The notes: a model not told the origin generated them from the letters alone. Positions 19,212 to 24,311 are shown, counted from the first letter of the stretch. The stretch: 29,134 nt of DNA from an uncultured Candidatus Saccharibacteria bacterium (GCA_964601245.1 CAZRMR010000003.1:1-29134), one strand, 5' to 3'. Translations and numbers: made by a program.

Positions 19212-19439
19212 TTATTTTTTGGTCTTTGAAGTTTTTGTAGCAGCAGCTTTTCGTGTTTTAAATCTTTCCACTCTTCCGGCGGCGTCAATAACTTTTTCAT
19301 TTCCTGTAAAGAATGGGTGACAGGCGCTACATATTTCTACTTTTATATCTTTTTTGGTAGAACCAACTTTAAAAGAGTTGCCACAAGAACAGGTGACTTT
19401 TGCGTCTGTATAATATTCTGGATGTATTTCTTTTTTCAT
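19212..19439 (-). CDS. rpmE: 50S ribosomal protein L31 (zinc form; start revised to MKKEIHP at 19439)
   Basis: [33 protein letters not shown]. Confidence 0.96.
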
Positions 19440-19483
19440 ATGTTTATCAATATATAACATTTAAAATTTTTTGCAACAAATTG

Positions 19484-19528
19484 AAAAGGCCTCACCCGAG
19501 CAGCAATTTGCTTTTGTGGGTGAGGCCT
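19484..19528 (-). terminator. Intrinsic terminator closing the GC-rich ncRNA
   Basis: 11-bp perfect stem AGGCCTCACCC/GGGTGAGGCCT, followed on the minus strand by TTTCAATTTG. Confidence 0.85.
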
Positions 19529-19880
19529 AAAGACGGGCGGTTGAGCCCCTTTTTGGTGCTAATCGCTACCCCTCGCGACTCACGAGCCAACTACACTCCC
19601 GTAGGAAAGGTTGGTATGGGTTTTGAATAACAGCAGAAAGGGCGCTATTACCGCAGGGGACACACAGCCCCCTTTCCTGTCGGTTTCGTGCCCAACCTTC
19701 AGGCCCCGATAGCCTGCGTTTGGGTGGCGAGGGCGACGTTTTGTCGCATTCTTGGGAACCTCCTTCAGAGAGCCCCGACCTACCAAAGAACTGAGCTTTA
19801 AGTGCGTCCGTAAAGGGATCGCACCGGCCCAGCACCAACAAGTGCCATTCTCCTCGTTTTCGTTCTTGTACGAGGATCAC
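19484..19880 (-). ncRNA. Unidentified ~400-nt structured non-coding RNA
   Basis: 200/360 GC over 19501-19860 against ~30% background; many stems; bounded by a promoter and a terminator; no RNase P, tmRNA or SRP hallmark recognised. Confidence 0.8.
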
Positions 19881-19885
19881 TATTA

Positions 19886-19913
19886 AGTATAGCAGATATG
19901 TAGAATTTGTCAA
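19886..19913 (-). promoter_or_regulatory. Strong sigma70 promoter for the ncRNA
   Basis: TTGACA (19913-19908), 16 nt, TGC-TATACT (-10 at 19891-19886). Confidence 0.8.
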
Positions 19914-20007
19914 GCAAAAATAAAATTAAAATTGTGGATTGCCAAAAAACGCTTAAAAATAATGATTTTTTAGCTTGTATTATAAATTTTAGTATTTATT
20001 CAATATT

Positions 20008-24215: not shown

Positions 24216-24311
24216 CTTTGGATTGGGGGGGCTGGGGGAGAGAAAAGCACCGGTGTTTGGTAAGTGTCTGGATCACCTCCTTTCTCTCTCCCCCACTTTG
24301 TTCGTTAGACT
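24186..24311 (-). ncRNA. Putative small RNA carrying an 18-nt complement of the 16S rRNA 3' end
   Basis: AGAAAGGAGGTGATCCAG at 24285-24268 within a 15-bp stem-loop; promoter upstream, hairpin downstream. Confidence 0.55.

What the first reader, a model, noticed from the sequence alone, without database searches (positions are those of the whole stretch)
19484..19913. Stand-alone ~400-nt GC-rich, apparently pseudoknotted ncRNA with its own promoter and terminator
Seen: about 55% GC in a ~30% GC genome. A near-consensus promoter (TTGACA-16-TGnTATACT) predicts a start near 19880 and an 11-bp terminator ends it at ~19484. Stems on the minus strand: UCCUCGU/ACGAGGA (19876-19851), GUGCG/CGCAC, GCGAC/GUCGC, a C(UACG)G tetraloop (19606-19597), and two long-range helices that cross each other, CGCAGG (19718-19713)/CCUGCG (19657-19652) and AAGGUUGG (19699-19692)/CCAACCUU (19614-19607), which makes a pseudoknot. 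AGCGCCCUUU (19646-19637) can pair with either of two near-identical tracts, AAAGGGGGCU (19675-19666) or AAAGGGGCU (19552-19544), suggesting alternative folds. It lacks RNase P GAGGAAAGUC, tmRNA tRNA-like ends and the SRP GGAA loop. Inference: a large independent structured RNA, possibly a new class. From memory only and unverified, a few short words (CGCAGG/CCUGC pairing, GGGUAGCGA, GGGG(C)UCAA) recall the raiA-motif RNA.
Basis: partly seen in the sequence, partly recalled or inferred. Interest (0 to 1): 0.88.

Follow-up and report, generated by a model that had tools for sequence, protein, structure and literature searches.

The report
Orphan GC-rich RNA gene before rpmE
A tiny-genome Parcubacteria (Zambryskibacteria) bacterium carries a roughly 400-base, GC-rich, strongly folded RNA gene with its own promoter and terminator just upstream of the ribosomal protein L31 gene; it matches no known RNA family or protein, has no recognisable relative outside its own species, and lies where related species carry unalignable RNAs or nothing, so it is real but its function is unknown.

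Summary
The core observation holds. Window 19484-19880 (minus strand) is about 55% GC in a 34% GC genome. It has a near-consensus promoter and an 11-bp terminator, and its predicted fold is far more stable than shuffled copies (z = -5.2). The proposed crossing helices (pseudoknot) and alternative folds are not supported. It is not RNase P RNA or tmRNA, which lie elsewhere in the genome. It is not SRP RNA, because the whole clade lacks SRP, as already published. It gives no Rfam match at E <= 10, including 6S and raiA. No related DNA was found in about 460 Patescibacteria genomes, 142 syntenic loci or phages. Its open frames look like chance.

New context: the gap between a lytic-transglycosylase gene and rpmE is a variable slot in this family. 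In 47 of 101 non-redundant loci it is 200 nt or longer. Most of these share the promoter and terminator architecture but have unalignable RNA bodies. This genome holds a second orphan RNA unit and a third, mini-ORF-bearing unit with the same promoter. The RNA bodies are enriched in Shine-Dalgarno-like words, although this clade's 16S rRNA has no anti-Shine-Dalgarno sequence; this is unexplained.

The best reading is a stable, fast-evolving, stand-alone non-coding RNA. This scan has already noted the same rpmE-upstream slot in other genomes.

The parts
19933..19941 (-). CAATCCACA, a degenerate copy of a TTATCCACA-like box (identical to the DnaA-box consensus) upstream of the promoter
   Evidence: A box of this type lies 8-38 nt upstream of the -35 element in 20 of 47 long gaps of relatives. 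Its function was not tested.
19886..19913 (-). Promoter TTGACA-16-TGnTATACT
   Evidence: 11 of 12 consensus positions, with an extended -10. Almost the same promoter (CTTGACA-N16/17-GCTATACTTA) drives two other GC-rich units in this genome.
19484..19880 (-). Predicted transcript of about 397 nt. The start is inferred from the -10 box and the end from the terminator.
   Evidence: No RNA-seq data could be obtained.
19851..19876 (-). 5' stem-loop UCCUCGU/ACGAGGA, close to the predicted start
   Evidence: Mean pair probability 0.96. In the folds, most of the relatives' slot RNAs also begin with a 5' hairpin.
19759..19765 (-). AAGGAGG, a Shine-Dalgarno-like word, paired with UCUCU in the predicted fold
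   Evidence: The word is enriched in this class of RNAs, although the clade's 16S rRNA has no anti-SD.
19699..19749 (-). 16-codon open frame (AUG 9 nt after AAGGAGG). Probably not translated.
   Evidence: The one strain SNP (19730) changes Leu to Pro in it. The organism's own ribosome lacks an anti-SD.
19655..19679 (-). GGGG(G)/CCCC hairpin module, a hot spot of length change between strains
   Evidence: Run X6 carries a 25-nt tandem duplication of it. Run X4 carries 6 extra nt there.
19597..19606 (-). UCC-UACG-GGA tetraloop hairpin
   Evidence: Present in the minimum-free-energy fold.
19484..19528 (-). Intrinsic terminator: an 11-bp stem with an inner small hairpin, followed by UUUU
   Evidence: The base of the stem and the U tract (AGGCC...GGCCUUUUC) are shared with the relatives' slot RNAs.
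19449..19476 (-). rpmE's own promoter (TTGCAA-16-TATATT). Its -10 box ends 9 nt before the rpmE ATG at 19439.
   Evidence: The same promoter precedes rpmE in relatives with or without a slot RNA.

Best explanation
This is a stand-alone gene for a stable, highly structured, non-coding RNA of about 397 nt. It is transcribed from a near-consensus sigma-70-type promoter and ended by an intrinsic terminator. It sits between the stop codon of a coiled-coil lytic-transglycosylase gene and the separate, near-leaderless promoter of rpmE.

It belongs to a set of GC-rich promoter-RNA-terminator units found in Zambryskibacteria-type Parcubacteria. Their boundaries (promoter, 5' hairpin, terminator base) are kept. 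Their bodies change beyond recognition between genera, partly by duplication and shuffling of hairpin modules.

Inferred, not shown: the RNA acts in trans as an abundant, nuclease-resistant molecule. It would bind a partner, either a protein or an RNA, through a few exposed or conditionally exposed words such as AAGGAGG, not through a conserved global fold.
For: Transcription-unit signals, GC excess and fold stability.

No known RNA family:
- Only a tRNA reaches gathering score in the window. Only three chance-level hits appear at E <= 10.
- RNase P RNA lies at C5:11679-12082 with 112.6 bits. tmRNA lies at C1:52076-52487.

Not coding:
- The 115-aa frame has no Pfam hit.
- The 91-aa frame has no relative among 5.8 billion protein clusters.
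- GC by codon position is flat at 0.60/0.56/0.55, while neighbouring genes have GC3 of 0.18-0.26.
- The longest open frame is 104 codons, against a shuffle mean of 79 (p = 0.14). The class as a whole shows no excess of long frames.

Independence from rpmE:
- rpmE keeps its own promoter in loci with and without the RNA.
- A second orphan RNA unit with the same promoter sits upstream of an unrelated gene (C13:15021-15369, z = -5.05).

Slot context:
- The order L25, transglycosylase, gap, L31, release factor, S2 is conserved.
- Of 101 non-redundant loci, 51 have a gap of 110 nt or less and 47 a gap of 200 nt or more. Of those 47, 34 have a TTGAC promoter, 33 a GGCC-UUUU terminator and 29 both.
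- Similarity between loci is almost confined to the flanks.

Structure is under selection in at least one subtype: 8 of 41 predicted pairs show compensatory changes among four related slot RNAs.

Modular change: all strain polymorphisms in 951 nt lie inside the RNA. One of them is a 25-nt hairpin duplication.
Against: - There is no transcript evidence. Only DNA runs hold the sequence and no RNA run could be listed.
- No homologue exists, so no covariation supports this RNA's own fold.
- About half of related genomes have nothing in the slot, which argues against an essential role.
- No partner is identified. CsrA and Hfq genes were not found.
- The SD-like word cannot pair with the organism's own 16S rRNA.
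Confidence: 0.6

Rival explanations
1. It is an mRNA for one or more micropeptides. Candidates are the 16-codon frame after AAGGAGG-9-AUG, a second 16-codon frame at 19848-19798, or the 91-codon frame after GAGGAG-8-UUG. The GC-rich structure would serve as leader and trailer.
For: - SD-like words precede start codons at plausible spacing.
- In one subtype of relatives' RNAs a 12-18-codon frame is kept, mostly with third-position differences: VA-x-VYLGD and LAGDLT.
- The third unit in this genome has AAAGGAG-7-ATG and a 20-codon frame.
- Earlier scan notes describe GC-rich cassettes that encode small orphan proteins.
Against: - The clade's 16S rRNA has no anti-SD. Only 7% of backbone genes have an SD-like word.
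- The GAGGAG word is locked in the 5' hairpin (probability 0.96), and AAGGAGG is paired in the predicted fold.
- Open-frame lengths are no greater than in shuffles.
- No protein homologue was found.
- There is no codon-position signal.
- The only SNP is non-synonymous in both frames that it touches.
- The 'synonymous' differences in relatives also preserve a hairpin. One relative keeps the hairpin but, by my reading of its sequence, not the frame.
Confidence: 0.13
2. It is a functionless or selfish insert. Either it is a promoter-terminator cassette of foreign composition (moron-like), or it is a fast-decaying remnant that is transcribed but does nothing for the cell.
For: - The sequence is an orphan.
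- It is present in some close relatives and absent in others, with different bodies even within one genus.
- GC is 20 points above the genome.
- Three units in this genome share one promoter type.
Against: - A 594-kb streamlined genome keeps an 11/12 promoter, a 5' hairpin and a perfect terminator.
- GC richness and fold stability persist against the AT-rich genomic background; that this needs selection is inference.
- A subtype in relatives shows compensatory pair changes.
- The strand-specific word enrichment is not expected of junk.
- No match was found in phage records.
Confidence: 0.15
3. It is a cis-acting leader or attenuator of rpmE. Examples would be an L31-sensing element or a leader-peptide element that sets read-through at the terminator.
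For: - It always lies directly upstream of rpmE, with the terminator a few bases from rpmE's -35 element.
- Mini-frames with hairpins resemble leader-peptide attenuators.
- An earlier scan note made the same comparison.
Against: - rpmE has its own conserved promoter with a -10 box 6-9 nt before the ATG. This holds in relatives that lack any RNA.
- No Rfam L31-leader hit was found.
- The sister unit sits before an unrelated lemA-like gene.
- A 400-nt length and hypervariability are unlike known r-protein leaders (my own knowledge).
Confidence: 0.07
4. It is a very divergent functional analogue of a housekeeping RNA that Rfam cannot see here, most plausibly a 6S- or Ms1-like regulator of RNA polymerase.
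For: - No 6S RNA was found in the genome.
- 6S and Ms1 are abundant RNAs with poorly conserved sequences (my own knowledge).
- The promoter is strong.
Against: - The predicted fold is multi-branched. It has its own 5' hairpin and terminator, and is not a rod with a central bubble.
- About half of relatives have nothing in this slot.
- No hit to 6S was found at E <= 10.
Confidence: 0.05

Closest known systems
Orphan GC-rich intergenic structured-RNA candidates from GC-versus-length screens of AT-rich bacteria (Stav 2019, PMC6429828; Brewer 2021, PMC8632094; Narunsky 2024, PMC11109978; listed)
   Same: A long, GC-rich intergenic region in an AT-rich genome. It has strong predicted structure, no known family and no known function.
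   Different: No homologues exist from which to build a motif. The unit has clear transcription signals of its own. It lies in a syntenic slot whose content differs between relatives.
Phage 'morons' (promoter-gene-terminator units of deviant composition; my own knowledge, and the comparison used in earlier scan notes)
   Same: A self-contained unit with its own promoter and terminator. Its composition is unlike its neighbours, and it is present in some relatives and absent in others.
   Different: It lies on a chromosome among ribosomal-protein genes, with no phage context or phage match. The payload is RNA, not a protein gene. The flanks are conserved across a bacterial family.
CsrB/RsmZ-type protein-sponge sRNAs (my own knowledge)
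   Same: A strong promoter and an intrinsic terminator. Strings of hairpin modules change in number by duplication. The sequence evolves fast.
   Different: No CsrA gene was found. By my reading of the sequence, GGA is not repeated beyond chance, with about 5 copies in 400 nt.
6S RNA (RF00013) and mycobacterial Ms1
   Same: An abundant stand-alone RNA whose sequence is poorly conserved.
   Different: No Rfam hit. The predicted fold is not a rod with a central bubble. It is not kept in all relatives.
raiA-motif RNA
   Same: A structured ncRNA of a few hundred nucleotides with GC-rich helices.
   Different: No match to the Rfam model, even at E <= 10. The remembered shared words are short.
Leader-peptide transcription attenuators (trp, his; my own knowledge)
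   Same: A short open frame overlaps hairpins upstream of a terminator.
   Different: The downstream gene has its own promoter. The ribosome of this clade has no anti-SD to use the SD-like word.

Membership tests
Bacterial RNase P RNA (RF00010) | Match to the covariance model, and being the genome's only copy | tested here: not met
   No hit in the region at E <= 10. A bona fide copy scores 112.6 bits at C5:11679-12082.
tmRNA | tRNA-like ends and a tag reading frame | tested here: not met
   ARAGORN finds none in the window. It finds the genome's tmRNA at C1:52076-52487.
SRP RNA (RF00169, RF01854) | Match to the model, and presence of the partner protein Ffh | tested here: not met
   No RNA hit. 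No SRP54 or M domain was found in the genome or in 30 relatives. SRP loss in Parcubacteria is published (PMC4508563).
6S RNA (RF00013) | Match to the model, and a rod-like fold with a central bubble | tested here: not met
   No hit. The predicted fold is multi-branched. A functional analogue cannot be excluded by computation.
raiA, OLE, ROOL, GOLLD and other large ncRNAs in Rfam 15 | Match to the family covariance model | tested here: not met
   cmscan of 19400-19980 against all 4227 families at E <= 10 gave three chance-level hits to unrelated small RNAs.
Ribosomal-protein L31 leaders (Rfam) | Match to the model, and being part of the rpmE 5' UTR | tested here: not met
   No hit. A terminator and a separate rpmE promoter lie in between.
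   Both helices have pair probability about 0 and cost 10-13 kcal/mol when forced. Covariation cannot be tested because there are no homologues.
Slot RNAs between the transglycosylase gene and rpmE in Zambryskibacteria (defined here) | The same syntenic place, with homologous promoter and terminator flanks | tested here: met
   Synteny. The promoter region aligns with L007 and L136, and the 3' flank with L021.
Slot RNAs between the transglycosylase gene and rpmE in Zambryskibacteria (defined here) | Recognisable homology of the RNA body | tested here: not met
   blastn and nhmmer against 49 other non-redundant gaps found nothing.
GC-rich self-contained promoter-gene-terminator units of Patescibacteria (a class known only from this scan's notes) | GC excess, own consensus promoter, own terminator, SD-like word, orphan sequence, several units per genome sharing a promoter motif | tested here: met
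   Three units in this genome share CTTGACA-N16/17-GCTATACTTA.

The most novel reading that the evidence does not exclude
These GC-rich RNA units carry Shine-Dalgarno-like words on the transcribed strand. This element has AAGGAGG, and a 16-nt copy of the canonical 16S tail or its complement lies 4.4 kb away. The bacterium's own 16S rRNA has lost the anti-SD. The units could therefore be aimed at a ribosome or RNA that is not the bacterium's own. For example, they could be symbiont RNAs that dock on, or are expressed by, the ribosomes of a host cell, and they would diversify quickly as conflict molecules do.
Probability: 0.04. Interest if true: 0.9.

Novelty: new member of a known kind. Interest (0 to 1): 0.45.

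Why it matters
Parcubacteria have some of the smallest known cellular genomes, yet this one spends about 0.4 kb on a strongly promoted RNA of unknown role, and holds two more units with the same promoter.

Three observations make a concrete, testable puzzle about RNA biology in ultra-small symbionts:
- A family-wide slot keeps its promoter and terminator while the RNA body turns over.
- Hairpin modules duplicate between strains of one species.
- SD-like words are enriched in a clade whose ribosome cannot read them.

A function would add a new RNA class. If the units prove to be junk, that says something about how such genomes tolerate or create new transcripts.

Tried and rejected
- **Known RNA families.** Rfam at gathering score and at E <= 10 gave nothing. 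This includes 26 relatives' loci and the sister units.
- **Housekeeping RNAs.** RNase P RNA and tmRNA lie elsewhere. SRP RNA is rejected because the clade has no SRP proteins. No 6S hit was found.
- **Sequence homologues.** None was found in 60 relatives, 400 genomes of the phylum (two short chance matches), phage records, 80 metagenome loci or 62 genome loci. nhmmer also found none.
- **Protein coding.** Pfam, a search of 5.8 billion protein clusters, codon-position GC and open-frame length against shuffles were all negative.
- **Antisense targets in the own genome.** Only chance 11-18-nt matches were found.
- **Replication origin.** The TTATCCACA-like box is single here, and GC skew does not turn at this place.
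- **CsrA or Hfq as partners.** Neither gene was found.
- **Expression.** Only DNA metagenome runs hold the sequence. No RNA run was listed for it or for a groundwater relative's RNA.
- **Strain variation as a covariation test.** One SNP breaks an A-U pair in the predicted fold and is uninformative.
- **Not attempted.** A covariance model of this RNA alone was not built: 400 positions exceed the practical limit and there is only one sequence.

Full report
**1. The observation**

On the minus strand, 19484-19880 is a GC island. GC is 0.53-0.56 in 200-nt windows, against 0.26-0.41 beside it. The genome as a whole is 34.2% GC.

- Promoter: TTGACA-16-TATACT with an upstream TG lies at 19913-19886 and matches 11 of 12 consensus positions.
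- Terminator: an 11-bp stem, 19528-19518 pairing with 19497-19487, is followed by UUUU.
- Fold: the 402-nt stretch folds to -169 kcal/mol. One hundred dinucleotide-preserving shuffles give -139 +/- 5.7 (z = -5.24, none as stable). In the ensemble, 110 pairs have probability above 0.9.
- Long-range helices: the two crossing helices have pair probability about 0. Forcing them raises the energy to -155.8 and -158.9 kcal/mol. The proposed upstream partner of AGCGCCCUUU costs 7 kcal/mol, and the fold uses the downstream partner.

The pseudoknot and the alternative folds therefore rest only on complementary words, and nothing can test them by covariation.

**2. What it is not**

- Rfam 15 gives only a tRNA-Thr in the whole window at gathering score. 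It gives three chance-level hits in the region at E <= 10, and none is to RNase P, tmRNA, SRP, 6S, raiA, OLE, ROOL or GOLLD.
- The genome (594 kb, 37 contigs; the window is contig 3) has its RNase P RNA at C5:11679-12082 with 112.6 bits. Its tmRNA is at C1:52076-52487.
- No SRP RNA was found.
  - No SRP54-type GTPase or M domain was found in this genome. Among 30 relatives of the order, four gave only short, weak P-loop-like matches.
  - Loss of SRP in Parcubacteria is already published (Nelson and Stegen 2015, PMC4508563).
- No 6S RNA was found, and the predicted fold is not rod-like.
- Record titles of related contigs name the lineage as Candidatus Zambryskibacteria, within Parcubacteria/Paceibacterota.

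**3. It is not a protein gene**

- The 115-codon frame across the region has no Pfam match.
- The 91-residue product has no relative among 5.8 billion protein clusters.
- GC at the three codon positions is flat (0.60/0.56/0.55). Neighbouring genes have GC3 of 0.18-0.26.
- An earlier scan note says that GC-rich cassettes in Patescibacteria can encode orphan proteins in GC-rich codons. I therefore also compared open-frame length with shuffles. The longest frame is 104 codons against a mean of 79 (p = 0.14). Across 27 such RNAs the p-values look uniform.

**4. It is an orphan**

- blastn found no relative in 60 genomes of the family and order.
- In 400 genomes of the phylum it found only two chance matches of 22-35 nt.
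- It found none in phage records.
- blastn and nhmmer found none in the syntenic gaps of 29 + 80 + 62 related loci.

Public runs that hold the sequence are DNA metagenomes from hot springs, fresh water, wastewater and an estuary. Contigs from four of these runs were laid on 951 nt. In the pieces assigned to this organism they show only four differences, all inside the RNA. One is a U-to-C change at 19730. One is 6 extra bases in the hairpin 19679-19655. One is a 25-nt tandem duplication of that hairpin.

**5. The slot**

The gene order L25, coiled-coil lytic transglycosylase, gap, L31, release factor, S2 is conserved across the family.

- Among 101 non-redundant loci, the gap is 110 nt or less in 51 and 200 nt or more in 47.
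- Of the 47 long gaps, 34 have a TTGAC promoter, 33 have a GGCC...UUUU terminator, 29 have both, and 20 have a TTATCCACA-like box upstream.
- rpmE has its own promoter in every locus, with or without an insert. The -10 box usually ends 6-9 nt before the ATG, so rpmE is leaderless or nearly so, and the RNA is not its leader.
- Similarity between loci is almost confined to the promoter flank and the terminator/rpmE-promoter flank. The bodies do not align.
- Four species of one genus have three unrelated bodies and one empty slot.
- One locus (L051) has two RNA genes in tandem, each like the single gene of another species. Its first gene is a mosaic of two other types.
- Among four alignable RNAs, 8 of 41 predicted pairs keep pairing through changes on both sides. 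At least that subtype is therefore under selection for structure.

**6. Sister units in the same genome**

Three units share the promoter CTTGACA-N16/17-GCTATACTTA.

- The first is the present RNA.
- The second is a 349-nt orphan at C13:15021-15369, upstream of a lemA-like gene. It has z = -5.05, no Rfam hit and no homologue in 60 relatives.
- The third is a unit of about 250 nt on contig 26, with AAAGGAG-7-ATG and a 20-codon frame.

The promoters of RNase P RNA, tmRNA, rRNA and the tRNAs look different.

**7. An unexplained word**

- AAGGAG occurs in 9 of 21 independent RNA bodies, with 3.0 expected (p about 0.001).
- GGAGG occurs in 12 of 21, with 6.4 expected (p = 0.004).
- The complementary words are not enriched.
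- In this RNA, AAGGAGG lies at 19765-19759, 9 nt before an AUG that opens a 16-codon frame. In the predicted fold it is paired with UCUCU.
- The 16S rRNA of this genome and of all 26 relatives examined ends with an AU-rich tail and has no CCUCC. In this genome and most of its family the tail reads ...GUGGAAUAUUUCAAGG. This loss is published (Tsurumaki et al. 2022, PMC9297842).
- Only 7% of backbone genes have an SD-like word, and 39% have a -10-like box within 13 nt of the ATG.

The organism's own ribosome therefore cannot read these words by the classical pairing. In one subtype of relatives' RNAs, a 12-18-codon frame after GGAGG shows mostly third-position differences. The same differences keep a hairpin, and one relative keeps the hairpin but not the frame. 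I leave the micropeptide reading as a rival.

**8. Mechanism**

Shown: the signals of an independent transcription unit, an unusually stable predicted fold, no coding signal, fast turnover of the body with conserved boundaries, and hairpin duplication between strains.

Inferred: the RNA is abundant, because the promoter is consensus-like. It is long-lived, because of the 5' hairpin, the GC-rich body and the 3' terminator hairpin. It acts in trans through short words, not through a conserved architecture. No partner is known, and CsrA and Hfq genes were not found.

My odds:

| Reading | Odds |
|---|---|
| Stand-alone non-coding RNA | 0.60 |
| Micropeptide mRNA | 0.13 |
| Functionless or selfish insert | 0.15 |
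| rpmE leader or attenuator | 0.07 |
| Divergent 6S/Ms1-like RNA | 0.05 |

**9. Comparison with what is known, and novelty**

The closest published kind is the orphan GC-rich intergenic structured-RNA candidates from GC-versus-length screens (PMC6429828, PMC8632094, PMC11109978). Three literature searches found no paper on such RNAs in Patescibacteria.

This scan has already noted the same rpmE-upstream slot in at least three other genomes. It has also noted GC-rich promoter-gene-terminator units in many Patescibacteria genomes. Those notes were leads that I re-tested here on this genome. The element is a new, single-species member of that loosely defined kind, not a new conserved class.

Noticed in passing
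G000:C13:15021-15369 (+), held as L186:122-470: A second orphan GC-rich RNA unit (349 nt, z = -5.05) with almost the same promoter as the finding and its own terminator. It lies upstream of a lemA-like gene. It has no Rfam hit and no homologue in 60 relatives.
   Followed up: yes
G000:C26:285-560 (+), held as L187: A third unit with the same promoter. AAAGGAG lies 7 nt before an ATG that opens a 20-codon frame. GC-rich hairpins and a 13-bp terminator follow.
   Followed up: partly
window 24268-24285 (+); relatives L217-L229: A 16-nt copy of the canonical bacterial 16S 3' tail (GGAUCACCUCCUUUCU), or a super-SD if read on the other strand, sits in a GC-rich hairpin. The 12-mer occurs once in 13 of 41 related genomes, against 1 of 41 for the backwards control. 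It lies about 5-8 kb from rpmE on the same contig in three relatives (G022, G007, G001), as in this genome. The clade's own 16S lacks this tail.
   Followed up: partly
G000:C8:26190-26240 (-), held as L183/L210; relatives L191-L216: The 16S rRNA ends with ...GUGGAAUAUUUCAAGG and has no CCUCC anti-SD. All 26 related 16S genes found also lack it. This is already published for a Parcubacteria subgroup (PMC9297842).
   Followed up: yes
whole genome G000 and 30 relatives: No Ffh, FtsY or SRP RNA was found. This agrees with the published loss of SRP in Parcubacteria (PMC4508563).
   Followed up: yes
window 19439-19476, and 45 nt upstream of L25, the transglycosylase gene and S2: rpmE and its neighbours have -10 boxes a few bases before the ATG and no SD. 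Genome-wide, 7% of long frames have an SD-like word and 39% have a -10-like box within 13 nt. This points to mostly leaderless genes.
   Followed up: partly
relatives L010, L037, L051 (the last 70-90 nt before the rpmE ATG): A long hairpin, CCCGUUAGAAGU...ACUUCUAACGGG, abuts the rpmE start codon in some relatives. It may be a real L31 leader element. It is absent from this window.
   Followed up: no
G000:C4:24206-24281, held as L184:1707-1779: A tRNA-like sequence lies inside the 23S rRNA gene. Rfam scores it as tRNA at 51 bits, and ARAGORN calls it tRNA-Asp with anticodon AUC. It may be an insertion in the rRNA gene.
   Followed up: no
relatives' gaps; G000:C8, after the 16S gene; window 19933-19941: TTATCCACA, identical to the DnaA-box consensus, lies 8-38 nt upstream of the -35 element of many promoters in this family. 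There are 18 perfect copies in the 594-kb genome. Whether it binds DnaA or another factor is unknown.
   Followed up: partly
relative L028, gap between the transglycosylase gene and rpmE: Several copies of a palindrome, GTTGGACATCCGATGTCCAAC and close variants, and a 257-codon frame on the opposite strand fill the slot. This looks like an inserted element, not an RNA gene.
   Followed up: no
relatives L051, L052, L055 (upstream parts of the loci): Repeated hairpin elements of the type CCCCUCC...GGAGGGG...GGGGUGAGG give sub-threshold hits to the Rfam whalefall-1 model (22-26 bits; the cut-off is 37).
   Followed up: no
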